Source: a virus (taxonomy: Duplodnaviria; Caudoviricetes). Taken from it: a stretch of 64,000 nucleotides of DNA. Made by a program: the position numbers and the translations under genes. Within the stretch, counting starts at the first letter, position 1, and each line of letters starts with the position of its first letter. Positions 6,201 to 64,000 of this stretch are shown here, piece after piece. The notes below the pieces were generated by a model. It did no database searches, was not told where the DNA came from, and saw only the letters and a program-made list of their open reading frames with translations. Location of the stretch: the IMG/VR virus record IMGVR_UViG_3300043468_001158; one strand, written 5' to 3'.

Positions 6201-7319
6201 TCCAGGAATAGTCCAAGTAGTTGCAAGAGTTGATTGAGTAAATCCAAATGGCAAATTAGGTAAAAAGACTTTACCAACTTGTGGCATGCTAAACTGAAGT
6301 TCTACAGTATCTGCATCAAGAACTTTAGTTTCAACTGGAATAAGATACTCATAAGTAGATGGAGCAACTTCAATTAGTGGTTGAGCAAATACATTTAGAC
6401 TATTATGGTTATGAGTAATAGTCCAGGTTGTTGATGGTACTGATTGAACAAATACTTGGTCAGGAATAGTTTCATATACCACTACTTTACCAGTATGTGG
6501 CACCCCTAAAGTAATTTCAATAGTATTGTTATCAATAACAACAACTTGCATTGCAAGAATAGCTTCATATACTCCAGGAATATTCGATTCAATGTATGCT
6601 TGCCACATAATATTAGTTGAATCAAAGTTGTGATGAACCGTCCAAACATTCGATGCAATTGGAAAATCAAATTGAACAATAGGATTTCGTTCAATAGTCC
6701 ATTTATCAAATGATAATGAAGTATCTTTGAAGAAGATATTCGAAACATTGATTGGATTGAGCGGGTCTTTTTGAACGAGTAACAAACCTTCCCAAGTCTG
6801 AATTGGGGATTGAAAATCGCGATGAGGTTCTTGCCATTTACGAACAGCAGAACTAGGTTCATTCAGCTTGACAGACAACATACCCTTACTTACATAGTAG
6901 TCAAGTCCTTCAGCTAAACTTTCAGTTCCATTGACTATAACTGACTCGATACCTCTAGATGCTCGTAATTGATATGCGTTATCAATCCCGTAACTTGTTA
7001 GAAGATAGTTCGCTTTGCCAAAGTTTGAAGCTGTACTAAGAGTACTATCATAGTAATGTTGGTTAGACTCTAATGAATAACGCGGAAGATTGTAAGAAGG
7101 TGTCAAGAACCTACTACGTTGTCCATCATTGAAATACGACTTCTCCCATACTGAACTAAGTTCAATGTCAATGAATATGTTATCTTTGATATTGACATTG
7201 AACGAGTCATAGAAGTCATACTGCTCTATGATTTCACTGATTTTGCAATGATAAGGTTTAGTATCAAGAACGTAATCAACTAAACCCTGAACATATTGTG
7301 ATTTATTAGAAATAGACAT
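3207..7319 (-). CDS. Large virion structural protein (baseplate periphery, 1370 aa)
   Basis: Begins with a KPYHCKISEI motif; three WTxxHN-type beta repeats; acidic C-terminal (G/P)YD motifs; overlaps the 3059-aa gene by 14 nt. Confidence 0.6.
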   Translation of the reverse strand: MSISNKSQYVQGLVDYVLDTKPYHCKISEIIEQYDFYDSFNVNIKDNIFIDIELSSVWEKSYFNDGQRSRFLTPSYNLPRYSLESNQHYYDSTLSTASNFGKANYLLTSYGIDNAYQLRASRGIESVIVNGTESLAEGLDYYVSKGMLSVKLNEPSSAVRKWQEPHRDFQSPIQTWEGLLLVQKDPLNPINVSNIFFKDTSLSFDKWTIERNPIVQFDFPIASNVWTVHHNFDSTNIMWQAYIESNIPGVYEAILAMQVVVIDNNTIEITLGVPHTGKVVVYETIPDQVFVQSVPSTTWTITHNHNSLNVFAQPLIEVAPSTYEYLIPVETKVLDADTVELQFSMPQVGKVFLPNLPFGFTQSTLATTWTIPGNFSGTDLSFFAIYVDDGIGSYVQDYSPDFVVSPVAMTLTFPSAYKGYVSYGYNNSYKVTSRNEGLLGYAKLVTTGSIVVTPTIEQQDFYIAHDPSSVLVDGLNTGFTSITPGHIRLNEPVHDDLTPIVFSHVIDRFENEHISFDITGGSGLEAYIELREEGFTIHPNAPEEIWTLIKVNPISYRQLVHEYVGLPLVQIRALKDIPNPLDPNGFDITLPEFDYLRHRYKIELVSLPDTYLITDLATNQPPFSGTGSSFTINNGTDDLFEFTITSSIRQLHVGDYAYFAFGYDTDDYSSPIYNPYDNGLTNVPYFGTITEFHPGRETLKLLPLGQAYSNAVTEVIQLTFSASEKCFYVDGSVTGEHPNAFLGHEYDNGLVRFRLVSSSEVFDISKMLEDPRNYMLGYTERSIAALDLLDGDTFHFEILAERPNYLVHGSVTGYTKPAVVGQYYWNGKIGFQLDLPKYQVHEGNTLQGVALTGAGAITLSNGNVITFNEPPRLDADDERLDLKFHPEIDQCPLIDEYDQFLVYSSSRGQLQSAIVGGSDPYEVVFAECAERGAERSNMFNFTIEPGSYASDFEFSISIIANKFKMCHSQDVLLLPHQVGPINTLRVNTYREDNLTLELRTNHPELGSYSELIPTYLVASDDYNVGKGYDGHILRLGYDVFGHTLTPLNYTSPATTLIQNGQVIFNSFNEINVDPQGNGPYDAIFEFEPYDTTGYGTANDGAFPNKPHKQSPNIPDRAYIYDVFLSNVAYQSEAKHNKVGTITWMADPVDNVFRQVLDVTPHFASNYLKLNTELTIRVEQADEYNDLVRVKMYEQLEMLNIEVESINVNLPDTGVPGTDDGDNWADTKFDDFSLDARSDYEILAYHGYDMYGYDMVDFAINLETGLPYLLGGYDEDLPDPSNIRVLDILLQLHDTYTDTRIEHPVAELLLQLEDATNVIELYTNAPSVPGIGVRGYLLQEGLDYTTSSIPGQPSYKAITIHRPQPLQLVSY

Positions 7320-10300
7320 CTGCGTTGTTTACAATAGTTTCTGGAGTAACGGTGATGATGCTATGAACTGAAAGTCTTGAAGTTTTGAAGATGTCAGTGA
7401 ACTCATAGTTATTGGCAAGTGCATCATTTAGCACCTCAAAGAATAGTTCGTTGATATGTTGTGGCAAAGCATGTCTCCAGATATAGTCTAAAACTTGACG
7501 AGTAGAAGCCGGTGTCACGAACCAAGTTGATGATTGTGATAGGTCTAACCCGTTGATAGTTGCTGTAGTATTTATCCCGTTTAGATAAACTGAAGTTTTA
7601 GGATTTAGAATGCTATTAGTTAGTGAAGCAATAATCAATGAACGGTCAGCTAATACTTGGTCATCTCTAAAACCATAACGAGTTCTTGTACCATGTCTTT
7701 CATCATATAAGACTTTGTTCAATGCAGGTATTGCTTGACCTGCCAGGTTAGTACCGGCAGCAGAGTCAACAAGTTTGTTCCAAAGTGTAAGAGGTATCTT
7801 CATATCTTGTTGAGGTCTAATCAATGTCCATTCAGTATGAGAGTTCTTCAAATCAAGGTCTTGTGGGTTATCACGTAAGCTAAAGTCACGCGTAAAGCGA
7901 AGCTTATACGTATTATCCTTATTAACCATCATGTTCAATCCAGCAATCGTAATACCATGATAAGCGCCATCAAACAACTCTTGGAAAGTTAAGTAAGTAG
8001 AAGGTCCTTCACGAAGTAATTGAGCAGATTGCTGACAAGTCAATTGCTTATTACCTACAGGCACTGTCTTATCTTTTACCCAAAAGTAATAAGTATCGCC
8101 AGTGATATTACCAGAACTATCACGTGAAGGACGTATAACATATTGATAGTCTGACTTATATTGAGTTTGGATACTTGGGTCATCAGATACATCAGGGTCA
8201 AAAGCAAGTTCATCAGAAGTTGGTTCATAAGCAGACATAATAGCAACTACTTCATGTCCATGTGGAATAGCTTGAGTAGTTGAAATCAAAGTCCCGTTAG
8301 TTGAATAGAATGTACGAGGTTGGCTAATGCCATTCAAGTATAGACGTAATGTATTGTCCGCTATTCGGTTAGAAGAAGTAACTTGCAAGTCTAATGTATT
8401 ACCACTTCCAAACTTACGAATGACTTCTTGTTGCAATAATATCCAATCACCCCAAACAGGATTGAACTTTTCAACTGTGGTCCCGTCATTCAATACGAGT
8501 GGCTCTTTTTCATATGCAACAATTTCGTCAATCACTTGTCTTACCGAAGGCACTTCAACATAATCGCCATACACTGGAGTCCAACTATTATGTGGGTATT
8601 TGAGGTCGTTATCAAGTATCTCTTGGGTTGGAACATTGTAACCAATCCAACCGTATTCGTCAAGTACAGTAGAAGTGCTATTCTCGATGCCAATAGAACC
8701 AGTAGATGCATCATACCCAATGACAACCATAGCACCAATAGTGCCAAGTTCATCTATGACTTGTTGAGCATCTACTCCACTAGCAAAGTAATCAGGATGT
8801 ACATTCACATTGATAGTAATATGTCCAAGATTGAAGCTAAAAGTTTCTACAAGAGGTTGAATTGCTAAAGCAACCGAAGTCAAGGTATCAATAGCAAGTG
8901 ATGATACGACTAATGATGAACCCGACGGTGTCGCTTGTATTAGTTTCAAGTAATAGGTATCATTAGTTGTATTAAGTTCTCCAGTTACTGAATATGTGCC
9001 AACTGAAGCAGTTGGGTTTTTCACAAAAGTGACTTCACTAAATGCATTGATGCCGGTCACTGTCAATTTGTTATCATATGACACTGGCAAATTGATAGGT
9101 AACACATTGTCCAAAATCGAATGAGGGAACTGAATAAGTACTGTCACTGGAGCAACTTCTTTGATTTCCAAGTTGAACAGTCCAACATCAGGAGATAAGA
9201 CTTGTTGAAGGGCAACACTTATCTCAGCACCTGTCATAGTAGCGACAGCAGTTGTTGCTATCATCTTGATACCTAATTGAACGAAGTCAATTTCATAAGA
9301 CCCGCCAACTTGACCACTATAGTCGTATAGTGGTTGGGTAACAGATAGAGACCCACCTGATGCTTGTTCAATAGCACGAATGTAATAAGTTGAACCAACT
9401 TGACTCCATTCAAATTCAATATGACCAATTGCTGCACCTTTGTAGTTCTTGTTATCAGACCAAACAAACTGAATAACATCGAAGTAATTCCCGTCACCAG
9501 CACTTACGTGCATATCACCAGAATGATAACCATCACTTAATGTAAACGCGATTGGTCCGTTAAGTATTGCTTCACCATAAGGTTTGCCACCTAAGAACCC
9601 GCTAAAATGCATACCTGGCACTAACCCGTATTGTGCAAAGCGACCTTTCTCTAACGAGACAAACGTTTCGCCAACACCTGGGCTATTCAATGTCAAACGA
9701 GTTGTTCCTGCTTTGAACAATTGAACATCTTGTGCTTCAGGTGGAGTTGGAACATATGACCATGCAATAGGTCTTGCTTCCCAAGTTCTTGTTCTTTTGT
9801 ATGATTGCTTACGAGCAGCTTTACCAGTTTTCTTATCTTCAAGTGCAACGTCTGCTGACAATTGGTCGATTGCAGAACGAGCATCATATTCACTTGGAGC
9901 TATTGAAGACTTAACCCATTCGTAGACATTGATTGACGAGTATTCAGCCATGCTACCCCAACGGCCAAGTCTTTCTTCAAAAGTTGGAAAGATTTGCTTG
10001 TCATGGTAAGGCACATATTCAAGTAGTGTTTTGTCCCACCAAGTTCTTCCTACCTCTCTGTCACCCCATGATTTTTGAGGGTCAAAGTTAGGGTTCTTAA
10101 CAGTCAAAGTTGAATAGTTGTAGAATGCAGGGTCTTTTTCCGATACAACATTGATGACTTCCATTGCAATAGCAGTATGATTATCAAATGCTGGATGCCA
10201 AGTAGTAATGTCTTCAATCAAAGCTCTATCAACATAGTCAAACAGTTTGATTGGTGAGAACTTTGGTTTAGCTGGAACTTGAAGTTCAAACTCATAAGTT

Positions 10301-13300
10301 CCTAAAGTATCACATGAAATGACTGATTGAGTATGGAATGTTACATTAGCAGTTGGAGCCGGTTTGCTCACAATAGTATATGCATCAGCTTTTGGAAGAG
10401 CAATCATTTCACCAATAGTAGTAACCTCTAAACGATGAGTTCTTAACTCAGGTTCAAACTTCAATGACGTATTCAAGTCGCTCAGTGTGTACCAACGGTT
10501 TTCGTCAGTAGGCAAGATTGAAATGTAAGTTAACGGAGCTTGAACGACTAAGCTATCAGGTTGTTCAAAGAATAGCCTAGTATGTTTAAGAGTGCAATCA
10601 TTTGCATTCAACTTAAGTTCAGGATAAGTTGGAGTTCTTGCATCACCATACTCTGCTACTTTATAAGCCCAAAACTCATCAAGTTTTGCATGTTCAAATT
10701 TGACAGAGTTCAAGAATGCATCAATGCTGTACTGAGTGCCTTTTGCATTGACCATTGCTCTCCAGAAATTAAACTCTGAACGTTCGTTTGTTCTAAGTAA
10801 ATCAAAGTATCCTTTCTTACTAAAGCCTAATAACGAAAGAGCATGTTTAGTTGTATCATCGTTATCATATACTTTATCTGCATTGTAATAATGACCTACA
10901 TCATCGATGCTGCCTGCCAAGTTCTTCTTGAAGTCATGTCTATCATTCAGGAAGAACCCACCAAAAGTTGGTCTAAAAGTATGATTTCTTCTAGCTTTAG
11001 CATCAATCAATAGTTTCTCAACTGATAAGTTCAAGAATGGGTCATAGAACAAACCTTCTGGAAATGGTGAAGAAGTAATGTAGTTCTCAAATAAGATAAG
11101 ATGTTCATACTCGTCAATAGTTATATGAGACCCGAATATTGGAACATAGCCCGTGATTTCAGTATGGTCATCAAAACGAATGACCGTTGAACCATGTGGC
11201 TGAATGATGTCTCCAGTTACATCATAGATGAACTGTGAAGTTAGAATGTCATCAAAGCGACGTTGAACAAAAGAAGCTGGCAAACCTCTATTTGTAAACA
11301 ACCAAAACTTTTCCATGAATGGATTGACACCAAAACCTTTACCTGGAACTGTTCCTTTATACAACCCATCAATGAAGCGCTCTATTTCAAGTTGCCAATT
11401 CTCAAGTCTTCCGGAGATAGGGTCTTGAGCCGGATTATCACCTTGACCAAAGGCAAAGCCTTGGTCTTCAGTATACATTGCATAAGCATGTAAGAAATTG
11501 ACTACGTTTTGAATACCTGTGATATTGATTGGCAAATTAATTGATACTATACTTGTTACTTCTAAATAGTTTCTCCATTCATCGACTGAATGAGCTTTAG
11601 AAAAAGCATTGAAAGTTTCAAATGTTCCACTTGTATTTAGAGTATAAGTATCTATTTGTGGATGACGAGAGAAATAGTTCTCTATTCTAAACTTCCAATT
11701 AGAACCTTGATTTGGACCGGGTTTATATATATTATTTCCATTTGAATCTTGACCTAACCAAATCTTGTCTAATCCAATTTCAATTACTTGAACACGAAGT
11801 GCTTGAAGCCAAAGGTTCTTAGCAAGAGTGCTCTTATTCATGAATAGTCGATATGACGGGTCAGGAATATTGCGATAAGCATCATTTGATAAACGAAGAT
11901 TACCTTGTTCAATTAAAGTTCCTGAACGATATGCAAGTTGAGTTTTCCAATTTCTTAGTAACTGAACATTCTTAGAGACTGATGAATCCATTGCATTATA
12001 CGCTAAGAATTGTGTATAAAGTTGATTTAGTCCTTTATATGTAACTTTAGTTGCAGGAACAAAATTTGATGTTCCAGTTCCATTAGTAAGAAGAGTAACT
12101 TCAAACTTATCTCCTATAATCAATGGTCTCCCATTCTCAACTACCTCAAAGTTGAATGCAATATCAGCACCATTAGTAAAAGACGTTCCTTTATGTAAAA
12201 TGATAATAGTTTCATCTTTAGTTGCAAGAATAAGCTGAAGGTCTAATTGTTGATAAACTACTTCTAATGTAAAGTTTCTTGTGCCTCCAACTGATACATT
12301 GCTAAACACAATTTCAGGAATTCCTAATAAAGTATTACTTGTATGAACAGGTTCTCCATGTAACGAGAACTTATAATGGGTTAGTAAATCACCTGTCATT
12401 CTGTCTAATTCAAGTTCATTTGAAGCAAATGTTTGGAAACCCCAATTAGTTTCAAGAAACTTAACAGGATTTATCTTATAACTTGAACGTGCTTGTGAAT
12501 ATGCAAAGGCAATAGAATGTCGCCAAATAAGTTCAACAGGACCTTCATCTCCAAACAAGTAAGAGTCACGAACTCCTAACGGTTCAGCTGTCAAAAGAGC
12601 ATAAGAGCTTATCGGTGAAGAAAGAGAGACATAAGGTGGCAATAAAGTATCAGTATTAGGATTAACACAAAGTTTGATACCAGGATATAATGCTTGAACA
12701 TCAGTCCATAATGATGGATTCCATATTCTACACTCGTTGATAATAAAAGCATCAACATCAATAGTCAATGGAACTGAAGTTACTATCCAGAAAGACCCAG
12801 CATAAGGACCTTTATCAATCATAAAGAAGTCATATAAAGAAATATCACCTGAAGTATCATATCCAGCAACACGAGATAAAGTCAATCCATTCCAAACATA
12901 TAATCCGTTCTCAGAAGCATCTGTTTGAGATGTCAATAGAACAGTATCACCATTACCTAAACCAAAAGATGAAATACTAAGAGGCGGTACAATTGTCAAT
13001 AAATCAATGTTAGTAGTTGATACAATGCTTACACTTTGTTTTAAAATTCCTTGTGCTAATAATGATAATGGATAATCTGCTTCATATGCCCATTTACCTG
13101 GAATCGATGAAGGTTGTGCAAGTATAGCTTCTGCATAAGTGTCATGTCCAAAGAACTTCCAAGGTGTTGCATCAGGACGAGTAAGACCTGGAGCAATTCC
13201 AGCGAATGTCGCAAAATAAGCTTCATATAGTTTATGCCATCTTGCAATAGATGGTAGGGTTCCAACTGTTGCCAAATGATAGTTCCATGAAAACGGGTCA

Positions 13301-16300
13301 TTGATGTTATACACAGAACCTAATGGGTCATACGAGTTTTGAATAGCAAACTTAGCTAATTCATATTGCAAATTGTAAGGGTCTTGATAGACTGGGTTAG
13401 AAATATCCCATCTAAGAGTATTAACAGAAGAACCTAAAGTAGAAGCATCATAGAGTTTTTGTTCTGCTTTTAGAACTAATGCATTCACTATATCTTGGAT
13501 ATTGACAACAACCCAATTCAGCGGAGTTGAAGTAATATCCCATACTAAAGTTGTTGCATTGTAAAGTCTAAGTTCATTCGTAATTCGATTATACCAAGAC
13601 TTACCACTTGGGTTCAACACACCAGATACATCAGGTGCAACTTCACCTTCATAATCAACTGAAAGATACTTAAGCTCTGTACCATTATACCATAATTGAC
13701 CTCTATAAGGTTGAGTTGGCATCGAGACCGAAACTGTTCCTCGCGTAATAGTTCCATCATATCGTAATACTTCAGCTAAAGCAATGTTATGCGACAATGT
13801 TGAGTCTGCTGTAAAGATTGGAGATTGGTGTCCATCATGATGAATGGTAACATGTGCATCAAGTTCAAAGTCATATACTTGTAATGGTTGAACTGCATTC
13901 ATCATTCCCATCATTGGTAAAGTGATTGGCCAATATGTAATAGGCGCAGTTGTTGAACTGAACGCACCAACTGCAGCACCTTTTAGAGCATAATCTGCTT
14001 CATACATACTAAACAAGTTATCAAGACTTCCGTCAGCTGACATACCTAGTGCTTCGGGTAAAGAAGTCAAAATGTATTCAGGAATAGAGTTTAGTGCATT
14101 TCCATATTGAAGTTCTGCAAAATCTAACAACGAAATCGGAGTCAAATCTTGTTGGTTCAATAATGAGAAGAATAAGTTATGAGCTCCATTCAATGTTTTG
14201 ATTTTGCCACCAAAACCTGGGTTAGCATTTTGCAATAATCGATAGTTATTAGAACCAAATGAACTTCCAAAGAATTCAGGTTGATTTGCTATAGTGTTGA
14301 TAAAGTGATTAGACAAATCGCCAAATAGAATTTCAGAACGGTTTTCACGTTCAGGGTTCATCATCAATTGGGGAGGCGTAAGCCAGCATCCTGGATGATT
14401 GACATCATTGTAGATTGTACCTGTTTTTGGCATGCCATCTGCATCACTTATTGCATAACGAGGTTCTTCGTACGATGATGCAACACGGAATATCATATTA
14501 TCGCTTTGGGCACTAGTAAATGTTACTGAAGATGGAACAGGTGCATCAAAGTTGAATGCGATGAAATCACTATGATAAGTTGAACCGATTATCGCATTAG
14601 GTAATTGACCCGCTTTTGAACCTCTTACTTCATATGTTGTTGGGTTCTTATAGGTTAGTGTCCAAGTTTCGTTATTTGTATAGATAGAAGCTTCGATACC
14701 AGAGATGACAATGAATACCTCACTCTGGCTATATGTTCCATTAGCTTTTGGATGAATGAAGAACGAGATGTCCCCTGATGAACTTGTATAAGGAGTTCCT
14801 GCTACTGCATCGGGTGTCTGAATACCTGCTCTTGAACCTGTGACAGTAAAAGTAATCCCATCACTTTGTGGAACAATAGTCCATGTTTGACTATCAAGAA
14901 TTGGATTGATTTCAAGCGAAGTTAGATTGCCCGTACCACTTCTATCAATGATGGCTTCATTTACATAAGGTTCAACCGGTTGTTCTGATGAACGCCAAAT
15001 GGTTCTGATAACGCCATCCTGTTTGAATGCAAGCATTCTTCCATCGCTATCAGGGGTTTTGAGTCCTTGAGCAAAGTAAAAGTTACCCGTCTTATCTGCT
15101 TTGACACGACGTTGAAGCACAGCATCAAAATCTTCATTAGGGTCTTCGACATAGTAAAAGATTGAAGAAGTCCATGGAGCTTTAGTTCCATCAAGAGGCC
15201 AATATAAGTTGAACAGCGGAGGCTGATTGAACCTTGACTTGACTTGACCTGGAACAAGTTCAAGACCTTCATCATACTCAATGATTGGTCTTGTTGCGCG
15301 TTGAACTTCACCACTAGGATTTAGTCCAAATAGATGTAAATCTTTGCCATGAACCCAATAGTTAGAAGTTTGCCAATCAGAAAGTGGTTCTAGGTTAGCA
15401 TCCTCAGTATAAGTTTCTGCGTCTAAAGATTTGAACATCTTGCCATGATTAGTCGTTCCACTCTTTACATATACTTCTATTCCATTATTAGAGTAAGAAC
15501 CTTCTGTATCATATGTGCGAACCCAATTACCAGCAGAGACTAAGTAGATACCATTCTCACTTGATACCGCTTGGTTCTTGACTAATACTCTCATACCTTC
15601 AGTAAGAGTTACTCCATCTATAGAAGTAAAGGATAAAGTTCCTCTTGTTCCTGATAAGACTCCTGTTCCAATTCCGGTAAAACTTATTTGCGCAGGTAAA
15701 GTTGAAAGATGTTCAACTTGAATAGTAAACATATCTCCACTAACAAAAGGATTAGTTCCAACTTCAATAGTGAAAGCTAAAGGTTTAGAACCGCCTCCGC
15801 CTACATAAGTATAAGTTGAACCGCTAAAAGATATTGACTCAGGAATTGCATCAATAGAACCAACAATAGTAAATGACGTCGGTCCAGTAAAAGTTATAGT
15901 CCAAACTTGATTGAGTTTACCTGTTCCATTTAGAGCTTCAAGCGGGTTAGTTGTTGCTAATAAGACTGGAAGTTTCTGTTTACTTGATAGAGAAGGTTTA
16001 GCAATAGTATAGTATTCAGGTTTCTTTAGAGGGTTCCAACTAATATTTTCATAAGGTAAAGAAGATTGAACCCAAAAGTAACTTGAGTAATTTGCAAACT
16101 TGTCAATGTCAGTAGGTGGTGCAAAATTGAAAGCTTTTGATGACATCCAAGAACTTACTGTTGATAAGTCAATTCCAGAGATTTCTGCTTTGTTCAATAA
16201 GTCCGCAAATGACAGGAAATATTCTTCAGTTCCAACTTTAGTAGCTATCATTGGAACAAATTGGTTGAAAGCACGTTCAATACTTGATTGTGTTACCCAA

Positions 16301-16485
16301 GGTCGGGTTTCTTTAGCGTTCGGAAAATATCTGCCGATTAGTCCGTATAGTTTGACAGACTCTTCGTGTGTCAAACTTTTGTCAAACAAATCTGATAAGA
16401 GAGCGGTATTGACTGGGTTCTTGATGCTATTTGGAAGTAATGAAGTTAGACTTCTAAACGGTTTTGAGTAATCAGATGTTGACAT
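7306..16485 (-). CDS. Very large baseplate wedge/structural protein (3059 aa)
   Basis: Uninterrupted ORF directly downstream of gp6, with late promoter CATAAATAG (TAAATA at 16527-16532). Two RVLVKNQ/VLLTSQ-x-ENG(I/L)Y fibre-like modules. The gp7-like role is inferred from position. Confidence 0.6.
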   Translation of the reverse strand: MSTSDYSKPFRSLTSLLPNSIKNPVNTALLSDLFDKSLTHEESVKLYGLIGRYFPNAKETRPWVTQSSIERAFNQFVPMIATKVGTEEYFLSFADLLNKAEISGIDLSTVSSWMSSKAFNFAPPTDIDKFANYSSYFWVQSSLPYENISWNPLKKPEYYTIAKPSLSSKQKLPVLLATTNPLEALNGTGKLNQVWTITFTGPTSFTIVGSIDAIPESISFSGSTYTYVGGGGSKPLAFTIEVGTNPFVSGDMFTIQVEHLSTLPAQISFTGIGTGVLSGTRGTLSFTSIDGVTLTEGMRVLVKNQAVSSENGIYLVSAGNWVRTYDTEGSYSNNGIEVYVKSGTTNHGKMFKSLDAETYTEDANLEPLSDWQTSNYWVHGKDLHLFGLNPSGEVQRATRPIIEYDEGLELVPGQVKSRFNQPPLFNLYWPLDGTKAPWTSSIFYYVEDPNEDFDAVLQRRVKADKTGNFYFAQGLKTPDSDGRMLAFKQDGVIRTIWRSSEQPVEPYVNEAIIDRSGTGNLTSLEINPILDSQTWTIVPQSDGITFTVTGSRAGIQTPDAVAGTPYTSSSGDISFFIHPKANGTYSQSEVFIVISGIEASIYTNNETWTLTYKNPTTYEVRGSKAGQLPNAIIGSTYHSDFIAFNFDAPVPSSVTFTSAQSDNMIFRVASSYEEPRYAISDADGMPKTGTIYNDVNHPGCWLTPPQLMMNPERENRSEILFGDLSNHFINTIANQPEFFGSSFGSNNYRLLQNANPGFGGKIKTLNGAHNLFFSLLNQQDLTPISLLDFAELQYGNALNSIPEYILTSLPEALGMSADGSLDNLFSMYEADYALKGAAVGAFSSTTAPITYWPITLPMMGMMNAVQPLQVYDFELDAHVTIHHDGHQSPIFTADSTLSHNIALAEVLRYDGTITRGTVSVSMPTQPYRGQLWYNGTELKYLSVDYEGEVAPDVSGVLNPSGKSWYNRITNELRLYNATTLVWDITSTPLNWVVVNIQDIVNALVLKAEQKLYDASTLGSSVNTLRWDISNPVYQDPYNLQYELAKFAIQNSYDPLGSVYNINDPFSWNYHLATVGTLPSIARWHKLYEAYFATFAGIAPGLTRPDATPWKFFGHDTYAEAILAQPSSIPGKWAYEADYPLSLLAQGILKQSVSIVSTTNIDLLTIVPPLSISSFGLGNGDTVLLTSQTDASENGLYVWNGLTLSRVAGYDTSGDISLYDFFMIDKGPYAGSFWIVTSVPLTIDVDAFIINECRIWNPSLWTDVQALYPGIKLCVNPNTDTLLPPYVSLSSPISSYALLTAEPLGVRDSYLFGDEGPVELIWRHSIAFAYSQARSSYKINPVKFLETNWGFQTFASNELELDRMTGDLLTHYKFSLHGEPVHTSNTLLGIPEIVFSNVSVGGTRNFTLEVVYQQLDLQLILATKDETIIILHKGTSFTNGADIAFNFEVVENGRPLIIGDKFEVTLLTNGTGTSNFVPATKVTYKGLNQLYTQFLAYNAMDSSVSKNVQLLRNWKTQLAYRSGTLIEQGNLRLSNDAYRNIPDPSYRLFMNKSTLAKNLWLQALRVQVIEIGLDKIWLGQDSNGNNIYKPGPNQGSNWKFRIENYFSRHPQIDTYTLNTSGTFETFNAFSKAHSVDEWRNYLEVTSIVSINLPINITGIQNVVNFLHAYAMYTEDQGFAFGQGDNPAQDPISGRLENWQLEIERFIDGLYKGTVPGKGFGVNPFMEKFWLFTNRGLPASFVQRRFDDILTSQFIYDVTGDIIQPHGSTVIRFDDHTEITGYVPIFGSHITIDEYEHLILFENYITSSPFPEGLFYDPFLNLSVEKLLIDAKARRNHTFRPTFGGFFLNDRHDFKKNLAGSIDDVGHYYNADKVYDNDDTTKHALSLLGFSKKGYFDLLRTNERSEFNFWRAMVNAKGTQYSIDAFLNSVKFEHAKLDEFWAYKVAEYGDARTPTYPELKLNANDCTLKHTRLFFEQPDSLVVQAPLTYISILPTDENRWYTLSDLNTSLKFEPELRTHRLEVTTIGEMIALPKADAYTIVSKPAPTANVTFHTQSVISCDTLGTYEFELQVPAKPKFSPIKLFDYVDRALIEDITTWHPAFDNHTAIAMEVINVVSEKDPAFYNYSTLTVKNPNFDPQKSWGDREVGRTWWDKTLLEYVPYHDKQIFPTFEERLGRWGSMAEYSSINVYEWVKSSIAPSEYDARSAIDQLSADVALEDKKTGKAARKQSYKRTRTWEARPIAWSYVPTPPEAQDVQLFKAGTTRLTLNSPGVGETFVSLEKGRFAQYGLVPGMHFSGFLGGKPYGEAILNGPIAFTLSDGYHSGDMHVSAGDGNYFDVIQFVWSDNKNYKGAAIGHIEFEWSQVGSTYYIRAIEQASGGSLSVTQPLYDYSGQVGGSYEIDFVQLGIKMIATTAVATMTGAEISVALQQVLSPDVGLFNLEIKEVAPVTVLIQFPHSILDNVLPINLPVSYDNKLTVTGINAFSEVTFVKNPTASVGTYSVTGELNTTNDTYYLKLIQATPSGSSLVVSSLAIDTLTSVALAIQPLVETFSFNLGHITINVNVHPDYFASGVDAQQVIDELGTIGAMVVIGYDASTGSIGIENSTSTVLDEYGWIGYNVPTQEILDNDLKYPHNSWTPVYGDYVEVPSVRQVIDEIVAYEKEPLVLNDGTTVEKFNPVWGDWILLQQEVIRKFGSGNTLDLQVTSSNRIADNTLRLYLNGISQPRTFYSTNGTLISTTQAIPHGHEVVAIMSAYEPTSDELAFDPDVSDDPSIQTQYKSDYQYVIRPSRDSSGNITGDTYYFWVKDKTVPVGNKQLTCQQSAQLLREGPSTYLTFQELFDGAYHGITIAGLNMMVNKDNTYKLRFTRDFSLRDNPQDLDLKNSHTEWTLIRPQQDMKIPLTLWNKLVDSAAGTNLAGQAIPALNKVLYDERHGTRTRYGFRDDQVLADRSLIIASLTNSILNPKTSVYLNGINTTATINGLDLSQSSTWFVTPASTRQVLDYIWRHALPQHINELFFEVLNDALANNYEFTDIFKTSRLSVHSIITVTPETIVNNADVYF

Positions 16486-44798: not shown

Positions 44799-46346
44799 TT
44801 ACCCATCTGACAGTTCTAATTGATATTTTAGTTGTCCTGCATCCGAAATAGAATACCATCCTAGTGAGTCCCAATAATCTTTAGTGATAATATCATGTCC
44901 TAAATGAGCAGGTCTTCTAAATCCCCATCGATGTTTTCTTTCAGTAAAGTTAGTAAAGAATACGCCAATCTTAGTTTCACCTACTAATGAAAAGCCCAAG
45001 GTTTGATATACATTTTTATTATAATCAGTCCATCGCAAATCTGCCCAAGAAATAATTTTCTTTGTTGGATTATTTTTTATAAAACATGATAATAATTTCC
45101 CTGCACCACCAATAATCTGATAATCACTATGAGTTGCATAACGTAATAACTCCCACGTATTACCATCATCAATTTGGTTCATCATTATTCGAGGTCTGCA
45201 AAATGTCATTACTGCTACTAAATCAATACCAGTGAATAATCCAATTTGCACTTTAGATTTTGCTGAACCTTGAATATGATATTGATTTAGAAATAACGTA
45301 GCTTCATTTGATGAAATAATTTTAGCTTGTAATTTACGTGCAAAAAGTTTCGTTGAAACATTACAACCAATAATGTTGATGATTTTATTTTTTACTAAAT
45401 CTTTTTTTGACAACCATTCATCTTCAAAAATTTGAACTAATCTAATTCCACGTTCTTTACATAATTCATATTTTTTCCGATGCTTATACCTATCATAACC
45501 AGCTTTACTTGAATGCCAATATAAGCCATGATATTCGATAGCAATGTTTTTGCTTGGAATATAAATGTCAAGTTCTAAGTTATTCGGAAGAATACTTTTA
45601 TTATGTCTAACAATTTCAACATATTGAGACACAAAGTCAGCCAATTCTACTTCAGCTTTACTTTCTCCTTTTAGAGGAGGGAAGCAAGTATGACATAAAG
45701 TATTAGCAAATTGATGCTTTTTCAAAGTAACTAATGCAACATTCGAAACGTTATTACATGTACTGCATTTGATACTAAATCTAAAATTGCCTGATATGAA
45801 ATGTTCACTATTTTCTAAAACTTCACCCCATTCAATTTGAAGATTAGTTTCTAGTTTTTTAGCGGTTTCTTCTTTCCTTCGCTTAGCAATTTTTTCTAGG
45901 TGAGGTATTTGAAACTCCATTCTTTCATCAGAAAGTGGAGGTTTTGGATTGTTATGATAATATTCATTTAGCGCAATACTCAGTTTTTCACGATATTCAT
46001 CTGAACGTTCATGAGTTCTACCAGTATTGAAATGCTCTCCATTTTCTGCAGCTTCTTTAGATCGTTGTCCAATACCATTCTTTTGTTTATCAGAAACCCT
46101 ACCTTCTTGCCAAAGTTTTTTTGTAGTTTCAACAAGTTTAGCTTTAGTTTTAGTTTCTTCTGAATGACCTTTACCTTTTAGGGGATGATTGTCACCAGAC
46201 TTTTTTGCTTTTAGCTCTGGTGAATATCCAAATGGAGCATCATTTCCAAACTGTTCAAAGTATTCTTCTTTAGAAAAACCATGAGCTTTTAGATGTTGCT
46301 TATCAATTTTAGATAGCTTTCGGTTACATATTGGACATTCAATCAT
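44799..46346 (-). mobile_element. Hef-like homing endonuclease (Zn finger, NUMOD-like region, PD-(D/E)XK/DUF559-like domain)
   Basis: CPIC...HLKAHG; ELDIYIPSKNIAIEYHGLYWHS...IRLVQIFEDEW; C-terminal WELLRYAT...IISWADLRW. Confidence 0.8.
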
Positions 46347-57418: not shown

Positions 57419-57820
57419 ATGGAAGAAGAACGTTTTAGGTTCTCAACAATCGATGGTACTTTGAATGACAAGTGGTTGATGTTTGATTTGCCACGTGAAA
57501 AGACAAATCTTCCAATGGTATCACTTGCTCTAACTAAGAACTGTGTATCAGACGACAATGGTCCAAGAATTCGTATTGCTATTCATGATGGCGACATTGT
57601 TGATACTTCATCTGAACTAACATCATTCTTCTTTGGACATTCATATGTCAAAGGGCCATTTGATGTTATCATGACAAAACCACGATTTGAACTGGTTGAA
57701 GGTTTTATCAAGCTCAATCGTCAAGTTCTTTTGGATTTTTGGAATTGCAATATCAATGGTGCTCAATTGTTAGATGACATTGTTCCGTATAGTCATAGAT
57801 TGTATAGCAGCTGGCTATAA
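57419..57820 (+). CDS. Hypothetical protein (133 aa)
   Basis: Start re-called to MEEERFRF, 1 nt after the upstream stop. Confidence 0.6.
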   Translation: MEEERFRFSTIDGTLNDKWLMFDLPREKTNLPMVSLALTKNCVSDDNGPRIRIAIHDGDIVDTSSELTSFFFGHSYVKGPFDVIMTKPRFELVEGFIKLNRQVLLDFWNCNINGAQLLDDIVPYSHRLYSSWL

Positions 57821-57851
57821 ATACCTTTTAGATAATAAAGGAGAGTATATA

Positions 57852-58199
57852 ATGAAACGTTATCAATTAGGAGCATTGTTAGGAATAATCGGTTTTATGA
57901 CGAGCATGTCTATTCATGCTTATGATGGCGATTACTATTATGATACTCAACCGCCACGATATTATCAACAACCGTCTTCTGGTAGTATCACAATCCCACT
58001 TGGGAATACTTACAATTCTCCAAGCATTACATTTTCAGTTCCAACCTATGTTAGACCTCCTGTAGTGTATGAGCATCACTATTATGCACCTCCAGTAGTG
58101 TATCATCGTCCATACTACTATAGAGGATATACTTCTTACCGTAGCGGAGAACATAGACATCACCACGGTCATTATAATAGTCATCATTATGATGACTAA
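57852..58199 (+). CDS. Secreted Tyr/Pro/His-rich low-complexity protein
   Basis: Start re-called to MKRYQLGALLGIIGFMTSMSIHA (signal-like) after AAGGAG; TATAAATA at 57816-57823. Confidence 0.7.
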   Translation: MKRYQLGALLGIIGFMTSMSIHAYDGDYYYDTQPPRYYQQPSSGSITIPLGNTYNSPSITFSVPTYVRPPVVYEHHYYAPPVVYHRPYYYRGYTSYRSGEHRHHHGHYNSHHYDD

Positions 58200-61136: not shown

Positions 61137-61180
61137 AAAACAAACGAGCCAAACTTATCTTTATTATTGTAGTAAATCGT

Positions 61181-61304
61181 TTTAGAATTGATGTGGTGGT
61201 TCGAGTCCATCCTTCCCCACAAAGTGTTTTATCAACATAGAATATTTTGTGGGGAAGTAGAAGAACAGGCATATTCTGCTCTTATGTGAGTATTCAGTTC
61301 TATT
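61181..61304 (+). ncRNA. Circularly permuted tRNA-like module 1
   Basis: T-arm GGTGG-TTCGAGT-CCATC (61195-61211); CTTCCCC (61212-61218) pairs with GGGGAAG (61251-61257) across a capping hairpin; TAGAATTGA pairs with TCAGTTCTA. Confidence 0.7.
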
Positions 61305-61393
61305 ACAAAGTTATCTTCTTCGTATCGCTCAGCATACGTGACTAGGAAGGCATCTTAACAATTGCAAATAGGCACAATCTTATCATTCTATTA

Positions 61394-61502
61394 TGATAAA
61401 CCGAAAGTCGTGGGTTCGAATCCCATTTCCACCTCCACTTGGTATTGAATAGCTCGTCAGTATCAAGTGGGGTGGAGTAACTCAGTGGTTAGAGTGTCGG
61501 TC
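61394..61502 (+). ncRNA. Circularly permuted tRNA-like module 2 (rejoined halves read as a tRNA with GAU anticodon)
   Basis: 3-prime half TGATAA-ACCGA-AAGTC-GTGGG-TTCGAAT-CCCAT-TTCCACC-T-CCA precedes 5-prime half GGTGGAG-TA-ACTC-AGTGGTTA-GAGT-G-TCGGT-C. Confidence 0.88.
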
Positions 61503-61657
61503 AAATATAACTCAAACTCATCGTCAAACATGTGGGTTATTTGCAAAAAGATGTAAGACAAAGGTTCTTGATGACTGGTGGTTAGACAGGTATGTTCTAA
61601 TCGCTAGTCATTCTATAAAAAAGTATTAGAATAAATAGTATTTTTCTATAGAATAAT

Positions 61658-61793
61658 GTGAATGATAGCTCAGTTGGTAGAGCAGCCGCCATCAAAATAG
61701 CGTTTTTAGTTTTTGTTCAATTCACGTTGAACCGTTGAAAATGATTATCCAAATCCAAGCAGCATGTCATAGGTTCGAATCCTATTCATTCAC
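61658..61793 (+). ncRNA. tRNA-like module 3 with a 69-nt insertion in the anticodon loop
   Basis: (G)TGAATGA/TCATTCA(C) acceptor stem; GCTC-AGTTGGTA-GAGC D-arm; GCCGC/GCAGC stem; ATAGG-TTCGAAT-CCTAT T-arm; 3-prime end TTCA rather than CCA; TAAATA at 61632-61637. Confidence 0.82.
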
Positions 61794-61807
61794 TTCAAAT
61801 TATACGT

Positions 61808-61893
61808 GGCATCGTGGGGGAATTAGGTATACCCAGCAGACTTAAAATCTGCCAGCTTCGGCTATCCCGGTTCAAGTCCGGGCGATGCTACCA
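61808..61893 (+). tRNA. tRNA-Leu(TAA)
   Basis: GGCATCG/CGATGCT acceptor stem, GCAGA-CTTAAAA-TCTGC anticodon arm, long variable arm, CCCGG-TTCAAGT-CCGGG T-arm, ACCA. Confidence 0.95.
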
Positions 61894-61917: not shown

Positions 61918-62397
61918 TTATTCAATACTAACAGCTGAAGAACCGGCTTTTTTCATGTTTTCTAACTCCATTTTTAATCGTTCTATTTCTAAAGCGTAAA
62001 GTTGTGTGCAATCAATTCTCGCAGGTTCTTCTCCAATAGGAATAACAATTCGAGCATAAACTCCAATGTCATTACCGGCGATATTATTAGAAGATTCTTG
62101 ATTAGAATAATAATTATTGATAACTTGTGGGTCTGAACTATTAGATGCATTAGTATTTTTTGTTCCGGTAATACCAAAATCTAATGTAGGGCCAATATGA
62201 GTTCCTTGATTACATGTTGTTCCATCACGTCCTCTAACAGAATCTCCACCAATTGAGTTTTGAGGAGTCATTGGCATCATTGGTGAGCCATAACCATTAT
62301 TTGAAACTATAAGTAATAGTATTATTGAGAAACTTTTGTGGTAACTATAGAGCATGTTCTTAACCTCATTGATTGAGAATCTTTTAGAACCGCACAA
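61918..62397 (-). CDS. Secreted protein with C-terminal coiled coil, third gene of the pilin-like cassette
   Basis: Signal-like IILLLIVSNNGYG (true start probably MLYSYHK); DSVRGRDGTTC...LDFGITG...IGVYARIVIPI...RIDCTQLYALEIERLKMEL. Confidence 0.65.
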   Translation of the reverse strand: MCGSKRFSINEVKNMLYSYHKSFSIILLLIVSNNGYGSPMMPMTPQNSIGGDSVRGRDGTTCNQGTHIGPTLDFGITGTKNTNASNSSDPQVINNYYSNQESSNNIAGNDIGVYARIVIPIGEEPARIDCTQLYALEIERLKMELENMKKAGSSAVSIE

Positions 62398-62687
62398 AGA
62401 TAATATTTTGAATTATCTTTTATGATAATATCAATTGGAATAATTCGTTCTTGCTCTTTACCTAAAACAAATTCAGAAATAATTTTGTCTTCATTTTTTT
62501 GTAAATCAATTACTTTTACAAATTCTATAGAAGCAGTTTCAAAGTGACCATAAATTTTAAATTGAATCGGAGTTTTAGTACCAATAACTCCGGTTGTAGT
62601 TATTTTGTTTGGAAAAACACTTACTGCAAATACTGATTGGATTGATATAAAAAAGGTAATAAATAAGTTTATTAGATGCTGTTTCAT
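62322..62687 (-). CDS. Small PapD-like/Ig-fold chaperone-like secreted protein
   Basis: Signal peptide then VSVFP; beta-strand pattern with FVLGKEQERII and a C-terminal Cys pair. Confidence 0.5.
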   Translation of the reverse strand: MKQHLINLFITFFISIQSVFAVSVFPNKITTTGVIGTKTPIQFKIYGHFETASIEFVKVIDLQKNEDKIISEFVLGKEQERIIPIDIIIKDNSKYYLCAVLKDSQSMRLRTCSIVTTKVSQ

Positions 62688-62786
62688 AATATGTCATTTA
62701 TAATTATAAATCCAGTAATAAGTTGAGAGAAGGACCTGGATTAAATCTTTTCGGGTTATAAATTCCCTATCCCCCAACTTATTATT

Positions 62787-63299
62787 TTACATTGTGCAAG
62801 ATACTGGTATTTTTAATTGATATGTTCCAGCAGGGAAAGCAGAACCATCTTGACGCGTAACATTAGCATTTACGGCAATGTTGTATGTTCCGCCATCAAA
62901 GAAGAATGTATTAGACGCAGCATCTGGTCCAAATTGACTTACAGCAACGCCAAATAAATCAGAACCATTACCATTTGCTGAAGTAGTTACAATCGCGTCA
63001 GATAAAACTCCATTAGGACCAATAATAATTGGCGCTCCTAATGGTAAAGAATATCCATTCACATTAGCACGTAAGCTTACTGAAGCTGGAGAACCACCTG
63101 AATTTTCAGAAGATAATTGAGTTTGGTCTGCTGAAGTAGTAATTGTTCCATCGACAAAAGTCATAAGATTACAAGATGGAGCTACAGTTCCATTAAATTT
63201 TAAGTCTCCTGATGTTGGTCCGACTGCTGCAGGTAAAATAGCTGCAGAAGCTGAAAAACTAATTAAAAGACTGAGTGGTAAAAGTAATATTCCTTTCAT
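62787..63299 (-). CDS. Fimbrial (pilin-like) subunit
   Basis: Signal peptide ending FSASA; LKFNGTVAPSC; C-terminal FPAGTYQLKIPVSC; TATAAATA on the minus strand at 63357-63364 and 63391-63398. Confidence 0.65.
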   Translation of the reverse strand: MKGILLLPLSLLISFSASAAILPAAVGPTSGDLKFNGTVAPSCNLMTFVDGTITTSADQTQLSSENSGGSPASVSLRANVNGYSLPLGAPIIIGPNGVLSDAIVTTSANGNGSDLFGVAVSQFGPDAASNTFFFDGGTYNIAVNANVTRQDGSAFPAGTYQLKIPVSCTM

Positions 63300-63440
63300 T
63301 TTTATTTCCTTTTAAGTTGTTGATAATAAACTCATCATAATAATCTCAGCAAATGCTATTTATATAAATTTGCATTAGGTCATTTCAGGTTATTTATATA
63401 AGTTGGAAGTGACCAGTCAAATTATAATTTGTATAAACTA

Positions 63441-64000
63441 TCAAAAGGAATAAACAAAGTTGGTCGCAATCATCCACCAATTTTCATACGCACCTGGGTC
63501 TGCATTATAGTTTTCAGGTAATGCCCATCTTCCACCTTGTATCTTATGTGCTTCAAGTCCAATCATCCAATTATCACGATGATAGTTCAAACCAAAATTG
63601 ATGTCACCAGTATGAATTGTCGTATAAGGTGGTGTTGGTAAATTTTTTAGTTGCTGAGAGTGGTAAAAATTATAATTTGCATATCCAGATACATGTTCTG
63701 TTATTTCATAACGAGCACTAAACGAATATCCACCTGACCATTGACCCGGTGAATCCCATTCATTGAAGAAGGTTTTGACACGAATATCTTCAGCAGACAA
63801 AGTCAAATCTCGCCACGTGTATTCCAAACTATTCACAAAGATGTTCAACTTCTGGTCTTGATTGACATCATTTGGAAAGATAATTGCCATAGTTTGACTA
63901 GTCTTATTTCCTAAATTGATACGTGCCCATGAGGATTTGAAAACCAGGTCATCATAAGTATATTTCAATGTGGCTAATCGGTAATCCCCAAAACTTGTAT
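63441..64000 (-). CDS. Outer-membrane beta-barrel (porin-like) protein, partial (start lies beyond the window)
   Basis: Frame stays open from 64000 through the track start at 63968; alternating aromatic strands; C-terminal MIATNFVYSF ending in Phe. Confidence 0.7.
   Translation of the reverse strand, partial: TSFGDYRLATLKYTYDDLVFKSSWARINLGNKTSQTMAIIFPNDVNQDQKLNIFVNSLEYTWRDLTLSAEDIRVKTFFNEWDSPGQWSGGYSFSARYEITEHVSGYANYNFYHSQQLKNLPTPPYTTIHTGDINFGLNYHRDNWMIGLEAHKIQGGRWALPENYNADPGAYENWWMIATNFVYSF

What the first reader, a model, noticed from the sequence alone, without database searches (positions are those of the whole stretch)
61918..63398. Phage-borne, late-promoter pilin/chaperone-like cassette with no usher in view
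Seen: three co-oriented secreted proteins (pilin-like with Cys pair and AGTY strand; small Ig-fold chaperone-like; Cys-containing coiled-coil protein) behind two perfect TATAAATA boxes, downstream of a porin gene. Established: chaperone-usher pili need an usher and their genes are not normally phage genes. Inference: a host-surface remodelling module (receptor masking, aggregation, superinfection exclusion) or a virion appendage.
Basis: partly seen in the sequence, partly recalled or inferred. Interest (0 to 1): 0.65.

Follow-up and report, generated by a model that had tools for sequence, protein, structure and literature searches.

The report
Usher-less pilin and half-chaperone cassette in phage
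A giant freshwater phage carries a late-expressed trio of exported proteins: a distant relative of archaic pilus subunits, the front half of a pilus chaperone, and an unknown partner. The same trio occurs in many phages and a few bacteria without the usual outer-membrane usher, and no paper in the library searched describes it.

Summary
Three co-oriented minus-strand genes, each with a Sec-type signal peptide, sit behind two exact TATAAATA boxes in a jumbo myophage. They are A (62787-63299), B (62322-62687) and C (61918-62355).

- **A:** a distant relative of SCPU (archaic Csu-type) pilins by profile-profile comparison (92%). Its conserved N-terminal strand is left unpacked in the AlphaFold model.
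- **B:** a single Ig-like domain that matches only the N-terminal domain of PapD-type chaperones (95%).
- **C:** has a Cys pair and a short C-terminal helix, and matches nothing known.

The trio is a portable unit. I found it in related jumbo phages, in three groups of cultured Vibrio phages, and in 9 of 401 sampled Pseudomonadota genomes. In the phages it usually lies near tail-fibre, holin or endolysin genes. No usher lies beside any bacterial trio examined, and three of five trio-carrying genomes have no usher match at all. The upstream porin-like gene is not a constant partner.

My best reading is an usher-independent, donor-strand-type envelope assembly made late in infection. Its biological role is unknown. 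Earlier notes from this scan describe the same cassette on other DNA. My literature searches found no paper on it.

The parts
63391..63398 (-). Distal TATAAATA box (T4-type late-promoter motif), 99 nt upstream of the A start
   Evidence: The identical box is present in L010.
63357..63364 (-). Proximal TATAAATA box, 65 nt upstream of the A start
   Evidence: A TATAAATA or AATAAATA box is seen by eye about 50-100 nt upstream of A in L001-L008.
62787..63299 (-). Gene A: exported SCPU-like (archaic pilin-like) beta-sandwich subunit, 170 aa. It has a conserved N-terminal strand (L.F.G.V...C) and Cys43/Cys168.
   Evidence: Family alignments. AF2: residues 43-170 at pLDDT about 87-91, residues 1-42 below 50. 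HHalign against SCPU: 92-93.5%. Weak Foldseek top hits to type 1 and class 5 pilins.
62322..62687 (-). Gene B: exported single Ig-like domain, 121 aa, related to the N-terminal domain of PapD-type pilus chaperones. It has no C-terminal domain.
   Evidence: AF2 pLDDT 84. Foldseek hits to PapD-like/ASH domains, Caf1M and SfaE. VIA-align: YadV Z 8.8, CfaA 8.6, SafB 8.6 within a generic Ig field. HHalign against PapD-type chaperones: 95.3% over chaperone columns 21-122 of 258.
61918..62355 (-). Gene C: exported 145-aa partner protein. It has two conserved motifs, a Cys pair, a low-complexity N/S/Q linker and a short C-terminal amphipathic helix. Its start overlaps the end of B by 34 nt.
   Evidence: phrog_37374 E 3.3e-7. 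No match in Pfam, NCBIfam or PDB. The B/C overlap of 34 or 53 nt is kept in the bacterial loci, by their coordinates.
63441..64000 (-). 3' part of a porin-like outer-membrane beta-barrel gene (runs off the window). It is a neighbour, not a constant part of the module.
   Evidence: PF13505 weak. The full 370-aa copy follows a 141-aa exported protein gene in L010, whose L001 counterpart is weakly PBP-like. The same operon is divergent from A in L001. It is absent from 86 kb of the L002 record and from the stretches examined around the trio in the Vibrio-phage and bacterial loci.

Best explanation
The three genes form a self-contained, usher-independent relative of archaic (Csu/SCPU-type) chaperone-usher pilus systems.

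**Inferred:**
- All three proteins are exported by Sec. This rests on signal-peptide-like N-termini read by eye, which vary in sequence but stay hydrophobic across homologues.
- B is a 'half chaperone' that keeps only the subunit-binding N-domain. It holds A in the periplasm by strand complementation.
- A links to further A copies, or to C, through its conserved N-terminal extension by donor-strand exchange.
- C stands in for the missing usher as nucleator, anchor or terminator. Its gene overlap with B suggests translational coupling.
- In the phage the cassette is transcribed from T4-type late promoters. It would therefore build an envelope-associated polymer or complex shortly before lysis, either in the periplasm or on the inner face of the outer membrane.
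- The likeliest uses are envelope or receptor shielding, or a lysis-associated role. The evidence does not settle which.
For: **Conserved unit.** A-B-C keeps the same order in L001, L003-L006 and L008. It is also present in:
- Vibrio phage Bennett gp148-150, followed within about 0.6 kb by T-holin and M15 endolysin genes;
- Vibrio phages 1.205.O and 264E42.1;
- 9 of 401 sampled Pseudomonadota genomes. A- and C-like ORFs were found in all eight fetched bacterial loci, and a B-like ORF was read in the six examined.

**Homology.**
- A-family versus SCPU pilins: HHalign 92% (P 6.5e-7, 125 columns).
- B-family versus PapD-type chaperones: 95.3% (P 2.3e-8, N-domain only).
- Benchmark: SCPU versus classical Fimbrial gives 95%.
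- Controls: cross-family 1.6-4.4%, reversed at most 2.7%, column-shuffled at most 0.4%.
- The A HMM also weakly picks up pilin ORFs next to real chaperones (E 6e-5 to 3e-4).

**Folds.** A is a beta-sandwich, and its most conserved segment (residues 20-42) is left unpacked. B is Ig-like, with CU chaperones among its hits. The mature N-terminus of B (AVS.FPNK in phage, LSPMR in bacteria and Vibrio phages) mirrors the 'VsP.R' first strand of archaic chaperones fetched here.

**No usher.** None was found in the L001 or L002 records or in 3 of 5 trio-carrying bacterial genomes, one of them a 4.1-Mb single-contig chromosome assembly. The two usher hits that exist lie 0.4-0.9 Mb from the trio.

**Late promoter.**
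Against: - No Pfam, NCBIfam or PDB sequence match for A, B or C at standard thresholds.
- Structure search for A is non-specific. The best VIA-align Z is 6.4, to PPC/GOLD-type sandwiches, and pilins reach only Z 4.5-4.7. The field of hits for B is generic Ig.
- After crude removal of the N-termini the HHalign scores fall to 44% (A) and 80% (B).
- Donor-strand exchange, A-B binding and any role of C are inferred.
- The phage records searched for ushers are only 28-32% complete.
- The biological role in infection is unknown.
Confidence: 0.6

Rival explanations
1. A lysis accessory. The trio acts with the holin and endolysin on the outer membrane or periplasm at the end of infection, for example in outer-membrane disruption or lysis timing, rather than building a fibre for its own sake.
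For: The trio sits beside lysis genes in independent phage lineages.
- It is divergent from an M15-like peptidase in L002, L003 and L005-L008.
- In Bennett it is followed by T-holin and M15 endolysin genes.
- In Vibrio phage 1.205.O it lies about 2 kb upstream of an annotated M15 peptidase flanked by TM-helix and lipoprotein genes.
- It has a late promoter.
Against: - The same trio stands alone among housekeeping genes in bacterial chromosomes, where a lytic device would be harmful.
- 1.205.O has its own TM-protein and lipoprotein pair after the endolysin, a possible spanin pair.
- The window cassette has no lipobox protein and no long coiled-coil membrane protein.
- The junction between tail-fibre and lysis genes is a common place for accessory genes, so position alone is weak evidence.
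Confidence: 0.15
2. Receptor masking or superinfection exclusion. The exported proteins cover or block the phage receptor on the infected cell and its debris, as T5 Llp does, and no polymer is needed.
For: In the Vibrio phages the trio directly follows large (818-967 aa) genes annotated as hypothetical proteins. Earlier scan notes call these fibre or receptor-binding genes. In L010 it lies about 3 kb downstream of a YadA-head-repeat fibre-like gene. All three proteins are exported.
Against: - There is no similarity to any known exclusion protein.
- Late rather than early expression is inferred.
- Conservation of the same trio across phages of very different hosts, and in bacteria, argues for a receptor-independent core activity.
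Confidence: 0.15
3. Unrelated secreted beta-sandwich proteins. The resemblance to pilins and chaperones is convergent or an artefact of signal peptides and beta-rich composition. A could then be a periplasmic binding or inhibitor protein such as a PliG-like lysozyme inhibitor.
For: - Pfam models do not match.
- VIA-align ranks generic sandwiches, including PliG (Z 5.4), above pilins for A.
- HHalign scores drop after N-terminal trimming.
Against: - Cross-family, reversed and shuffled HHalign controls stay at or below 4.4%, while both specific pairings exceed 90%. Even after trimming they beat the controls by more than 400-fold in probability.
- The two specific matches point to the two partners of one known pathway.
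- The genes are adjacent and syntenic across phages and bacteria.
Confidence: 0.08
4. A virion appendage: the proteins decorate the phage particle.
For: Late promoter. Position near fibre-like genes in L010.
Against: All three proteins carry N-terminal Sec-type signal peptides, whereas tailed-phage virions assemble in the cytoplasm. The trio also occurs in bacteria away from prophage genes.
Confidence: 0.02

Closest known systems
Archaic (sigma-type) chaperone-usher pili: Acinetobacter Csu (CsuA/B pilin, CsuC chaperone, CsuD usher) and Myxococcus protein U/Mcu; Pfam SCPU PF05229 with PapD_N PF00345
   Same: A aligns profile-to-profile with SCPU pilins over 125-150 columns, including the N-terminal strand plus Cys and the C-terminal 'aGtY...v.v' strand. 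B aligns with the chaperone N-domain, including the 'sP.R/K' first strand. All are Sec-exported and encoded side by side.
   Different: There is no usher. B lacks the second chaperone domain. The second Cys of A sits at the extreme C-terminus. A third conserved protein (C) has no counterpart. The Pfam models themselves do not score A or B.
FGL-type chaperone-usher polymers (Yersinia Caf1M-Caf1, Salmonella SafB-SafA)
   Same: A single-subunit system with an Ig-like chaperone. Caf1M, SafB and Caf1 appear among the structural hits.
   Different: FGL chaperones have two domains and need the usher Caf1A/SafC. The structural scores here do not stand out from generic Ig or sandwich hits.
Chaperone- and usher-free donor-strand polymers (archaeal cannulae, bioRxiv 10.1101/2024.12.30.630787)
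   Same: A precedent, going by its title and abstract, that donor-strand complementation can build filaments without a chaperone.
   Different: Archaeal, extracellular and calcium-driven. No sequence relation was tested, and there is no B- or C-like partner.
Phage accessory envelope proteins placed next to receptor-binding or lysis genes (T5 Llp, lambda Lom/Bor, spanins Rz/Rz1)
   Same: Exported proteins in the same genomic position, between fibre and lysis genes. These families are cited from my own knowledge, not from a tool result.
   Different: No sequence or architectural similarity. The window cassette has no lipobox and no long coiled-coil membrane protein.

Membership tests
Chaperone-usher pilus pathway (complete system) | Outer-membrane usher (PF00577) encoded with the subunit and chaperone | tested here: not met
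   No usher match in the L001 or L002 viral records. No ORF of 500 aa or more lies beside the trio in the bacterial loci. 3 of 5 trio-carrying genomes have no PF00577 match, and the other two hits lie 0.4-0.9 Mb away. The ORFs of 500 aa or more in the window that were scanned are structural or unmatched, with no usher; the 3059-aa ORF was not scanned.
Chaperone-usher pilus pathway (complete system) | Two-domain periplasmic chaperone (PapD_N plus PapD_C) | tested here: not met
   B is about 100 aa when mature and forms one Ig-like domain. HHalign covers only chaperone columns 21-122 of 258. Every homologue of B is 106-140 aa. Longer fused forms were not searched.
Chaperone-usher pilus pathway (complete system) | Subunit with an incomplete Ig fold, completed by a donor strand from an N-terminal extension | tested here: inconclusive
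   The most conserved part of A (residues 20-42, pattern L.F.G.V...C) is unpacked in the monomer model. It aligns with the N-terminal strand of SCPU pilins. No multimer model or coordinates were available to show a groove.
SCPU / spore coat protein U pilins (PF05229) | Significant match to the family model | tested here: not met
   hmmscan finds no hit for A (E up to 1) or for 59 superfamily members (E up to 0.01). G003, which carries five A-like genes, has no PF05229 match.
SCPU / spore coat protein U pilins (PF05229) | Remote homology by profile-profile comparison over most of the domain | tested here: met
   HHalign 92-93.5%, P 2e-7 to 6.5e-7, 125-150 columns. Controls are at or below 4.4%. 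The score is 44% after crude N-terminal trimming. The Atlas lists 2 of 30 nearest clusters with SCPU on 39% of members.
PapD-like chaperone N-domain (PF00345) | Significant match to the family model | tested here: not met
   No Pfam hit for B at E up to 1. G003 has no PF00345 match at E <= 1e-5.
PapD-like chaperone N-domain (PF00345) | Remote homology, and a basic residue in the first strand (PapD Arg8 equivalent) | tested here: met
   HHalign 95.3%, P 2.3e-8, 92 columns, falling to 80% after trimming. The motif P-x-(K/R) in the first strand of mature B is seen in the window family, the Vibrio phages and most bacterial copies (one has P-L-A-K). HHalign places it over the 'P-t-R' of the chaperone consensus. 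The identification with PapD Arg8 is from my own knowledge.
Classical fimbrial subunits (PF00419) and DUF4402 (PF14352) | Profile-profile similarity over the domain | tested here: inconclusive
   Fimbrial: 83.6%, but only 36 C-terminal columns. DUF4402: 4.7%, with only three template sequences.
Two-component spanins (Rz/Rz1 type) | Inner-membrane protein with a long periplasmic coiled coil, plus an outer-membrane lipoprotein with a lipobox Cys | tested here: not met
   By eye, none of A, B or C in the window has a lipobox. C has only about 2.5 heptads of helix after a non-helical, low-complexity region. No lipobox was seen among the ORFs listed inside C.

The most novel reading that the evidence does not exclude
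The trio is an undescribed three-component, usher-independent donor-strand assembly machine: an SCPU-like subunit, a half chaperone and a new Cys-pair/coiled-coil nucleator or anchor. Many unrelated phages would deploy it late in infection to build a polymer inside or under the outer membrane of the dying cell. That would be a new class of phage envelope device (exclusion, debris shielding or outer-membrane rupture) and a minimal ancestor or offshoot of chaperone-usher pili.
Probability: 0.4. Interest if true: 0.8.

Novelty: new variant of a known kind. Interest (0 to 1): 0.62.

Why it matters
Chaperone-usher pili are taught as needing a two-domain chaperone and an usher pore. A compact trio that keeps only the subunit and half of the chaperone, adds an unknown third protein and works without an usher would show a second, simpler way to handle donor-strand subunits.

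It also appears abundant in phages. The nearest Atlas clusters are 90-100% viral, one with 1,228 members, and tblastn with C matched 188 cultured phage records at E <= 1. So it is probably a widespread, unstudied part of how phages treat the host envelope late in infection. Cultured carriers exist (Vibrio phages Bennett, pVp-1, 1.205.O), so the question can be tested directly.

Tried and rejected
- **Direct family searches.** Pfam, NCBIfam and PHROGs gave nothing for A or B. C matched only an unnamed PHROG.
- **PDB sequence profiles.** Nothing for A, B or C.
- **DNA and protein searches in phages.** Megablast of the cassette and of 24 kb of the window found no match, and tblastn with A found none.
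- **Genome-contig scans.** The A1 scan confirmed no relative. Alignment A5 was too diverse to scan. A single distant member, P0125, then gave the bacterial locus L012.
- **Structure search for A.** Foldseek E values of about 0.01 and VIA-align Z of at most 6.4 do not discriminate pilins from other sandwiches.
- **C against known families.** C as a diverged chaperone C-domain, pilin or usher piece: HHalign against chaperone, SCPU and Fimbrial alignments gave 1.7-4.4%, and its HMM found nothing in the ORFs fetched around chaperone and SCPU genes.
- **Porin as a substitute usher.** Rejected as a general partner, because it is absent from most trio loci.
- **Porin and its 141-aa neighbour against the PDB.** Nothing.
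- **Spanin and virion-appendage readings.** Rejected as set out under the rival explanations.
- **Literature.** Four full-text searches found no description of a phage or usher-less SCPU/half-chaperone trio.

Full report
**What is in the window**

The window is phage DNA. PHROG models for portal, major head protein and baseplate wedge match strongly. The capsid protein is 60% identical to Ralstonia jumbo phage RsoM2USA and 55% to Xanthomonas phage XacN1. No record in the phage collection matches at DNA level, and no whole genome is held for this window.

Three ORFs lie on the minus strand at the reported place.
- A: 62787-63299, 170 aa.
- B: 62322-62687, 121 aa.
- C: the ORF list starts it at TTG 62397. 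A better start is ATG 62355, which has GAGG eight bases upstream. That gives 145 aa overlapping the end of B by 34 nt.

Each protein begins with a signal-peptide-like segment. These segments vary in sequence but stay hydrophobic across homologues. A has Cys43, Cys168 and the strand PAGTYQLKIPVSC. C has Cys48, Cys116, an N/S/Q-rich linker and about 2.5 heptads of amphipathic helix.

**The promoter motif**

Two exact TATAAATA boxes lie 65 and 99 nt upstream of A. The window holds seven copies, which is no more than chance (5.7 expected). Even so, every copy sits 36-99 nt upstream of a co-oriented ATG ORF of at least 115 aa, including the ORF just before the capsid gene. TATAAATA or AATAAATA is kept upstream of A in the related loci. 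Reading it as a T4-type late promoter is an inference from the T4 model. I did not look for gp55 or gp33 homologues.

**The trio is a portable unit**

Each of the three proteins has about 20 close clusters, all metagenomic or viral. The order A-B-C recurs in the loci fetched through A: L001, L003, L004, L005, L006 and L008.

L010 matches the window's A exactly over the 60 residues it holds, and it shows what lies beyond 64 kb. A 141-aa exported protein and a 370-aa porin-like protein lie directly upstream of A, preceded by small membrane proteins and fibre-like genes. The L001 counterpart of the 141-aa protein is weakly PBP-like. In L001 the same porin operon is divergent from A. In L002, L003 and L005-L008 the upstream neighbour is instead a divergent M15-like peptidase, with an HD-type protein beyond it in L002 and L005. 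The 86-kb L002 record holds no porin homologue. The porin is therefore a variable neighbour.

tblastn with C finds 188 cultured phage records at E <= 1, 182 of them Vibrio phages from at least three genome-size groups.
- In T5-like phage Bennett, gp148, gp149 and gp150 are A-, B- and C-like. They are followed by a small lipoprotein, a T-type holin, an M15 endolysin and an HD protein. The start of gp149 is called too late, which cuts off its signal peptide.
- In phage 1.205.O the B gene is not annotated at all.

A full HMMER scan with the A profile found 72 relatives, most of them full-length proteins of 150-170 aa. Two sit on contigs of 4.1 and 4.5 Mb. One, in a Rhizobiaceae MAG, is followed by B-like and C-like genes with the same 34-nt overlap, then by four more A-like paralogues.

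A broader C profile hit 9 of 401 sampled Pseudomonadota genomes. A- and C-like ORFs were found in all eight fetched bacterial loci. A B-like ORF was read in the six loci examined in detail. The orders are A-B-C, A-B-C-A' or B-C-A-x-A'. The neighbouring genes look like housekeeping genes by eye, and there is no usher-sized ORF.

**What the proteins are**

Pfam, NCBIfam and PDB sequence searches are silent.

- **Model of A.** AlphaFold models residues 43-170 as a confident beta-sandwich. It leaves residues 1-42 unpacked, including the most conserved stretch of the family. Foldseek's weak top hits are type 1 and class 5 pilins. VIA-align ranks generic sandwiches first (Z 6.4), with pilins at 4.5-4.7. 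Structure alone is therefore inconclusive for A.
- **Model of B.** B is a confident Ig-like domain. PapD-like/ASH domains, Caf1M, SfaE, YadV, CfaA and SafB are among its hits, within a crowded Ig field.

To test homology directly, I fetched real SCPU pilins, PapD-type chaperones, classical fimbrial subunits and DUF4402 proteins from sampled genomes. I then ran HHalign locally.

| Comparison | HHalign probability | Detail |
|---|---|---|
| A superfamily vs SCPU | 92% | P 6.5e-7, 125 columns |
| Close A family (A1) vs SCPU | 93.5% | 150 columns |
| B superfamily vs PapD-type chaperones | 95.3% | P 2.3e-8, 92 columns, N-domain only |
| SCPU vs Fimbrial (benchmark) | 95% | 155 columns |
| Cross-family controls | 1.6-4.4% | A vs PapD, B vs SCPU, C vs either, SCPU vs PapD |
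| Reversed templates | at most 2.7% | |
| Column-shuffled templates | at most 0.4% | 20 shuffles each |
| After crude N-terminal trimming | 44% (A), 80% (B) | controls 0.1% |

The A alignment pairs the N-terminal strand plus Cys, and the C-terminal 'aGtY' strand. The B alignment pairs 'sP.(K/R)' with the chaperones' 'Pt R' first strand. I conclude with moderate confidence that A is a divergent SCPU-type pilin relative and B a chaperone N-domain relative.

C resembles nothing tested.

**No usher**

PF00577 is absent from the L001 and L002 records, although these are only about 30% complete. It is also absent from three of five trio-carrying bacterial genomes. The other two have hits far from the trio.

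**How it probably works**

These points rest on tool results: synteny, remote homology, the predicted folds and the absence of an usher. Export is read from the N-terminal sequences by eye. The following steps are inferred:
- B caps A in the periplasm.
- A polymerises, or docks on C, through its N-terminal extension.
- C replaces the usher as nucleator or anchor. Its gene overlaps that of B, and it has a strand with alternating hydrophobic residues followed by a short coiled coil.
- The product stays in or under the outer membrane.

The phage role is open. The position next to fibre and lysis genes suggests debris or receptor shielding, or a lysis-linked function. The stand-alone bacterial copies argue for a generic assembly activity rather than a lytic one.

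**Novelty**

Four literature searches found no description of this system. Earlier notes from this scan describe the same usher-less cassette in marine T4-like, T5-like and estuarine phages and in bacteria. I reached the same reading before seeing them, and I add the profile-profile tests with controls. The cassette has therefore been found before by this scan on other DNA, but I found no published description of it.

**Limits**

No multimer or C model could be run. The HHalign P-values are pairwise.

Noticed in passing
window 61140-61893 (+): A cluster of tRNA-like RNAs between the cassette and the 119-aa gene. It holds a normal tRNA-Leu(UAA) at 61808-61893. It also holds a tRNA at 61659-61793 with a 68-nt insert in the anticodon loop (Rfam 45.3 bits), which ARAGORN misses. 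There is a YrlA-like permuted tRNA-like element at 61402-61499 and tmRNA-like fragments at 61195-61259. This was already reported by earlier finding e1-5377647.
   Followed up: partly
L010:5937-7475 (continuation beyond window 64000) and L001:7303-9315: A phage operon encodes a small membrane coiled-coil protein, an exported protein of 141-146 aa (the L001 copy weakly PBP-like, PF12849 E 0.011) and a porin-like beta-barrel of 368-370 aa. It is conserved at 48% identity between two jumbo phages but sits in a different orientation relative to the trio. It has no PDB or NCBIfam match.
   Followed up: partly
window 57816-58199 (+): A further TATAAATA box lies 36 nt before a small protein with a signal-peptide-like start. 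The protein is very rich in Tyr, Pro and His and ends in a His-rich tail. Its function is unknown.
   Followed up: no
window 44799-46346 (-): A 515-aa homing/HNH endonuclease-like gene (phrog_3339 E 9e-78) lies directly downstream of, and convergent with, the major head protein gene.
   Followed up: no
window 3207-16485 (-): Two very large ORFs of 1370 and 3059 aa. The 1370-aa ORF has no Pfam match, and the 3059-aa ORF was not scanned. They are presumably fibre or structural proteins.
   Followed up: no
L011:4621-5049 (Vibrio phage Bennett gp149) and L017:3624-4037 (Vibrio phage 1.205.O): Annotation errors in public records. Bennett gp149 (B-like) is annotated from an internal Met and so loses its signal peptide. 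The B-like gene of phage 1.205.O is not annotated at all.
   Followed up: yes
L012:11456-14138 (Rhizobiaceae MAG OZ223237.1): In this bacterial locus the trio is followed by four extra A-like paralogues of 179-196 aa. Two of them keep a 'VIFGG.VG...C' N-terminal motif. This suggests a multi-subunit version of the system.
   Followed up: partly
G149:C1:770946-771437: This trio-carrying alphaproteobacterium has one further SCPU-type match about 55 kb from the trio. It is not listed among the PF00345 matches and has no usher match.
   Followed up: no
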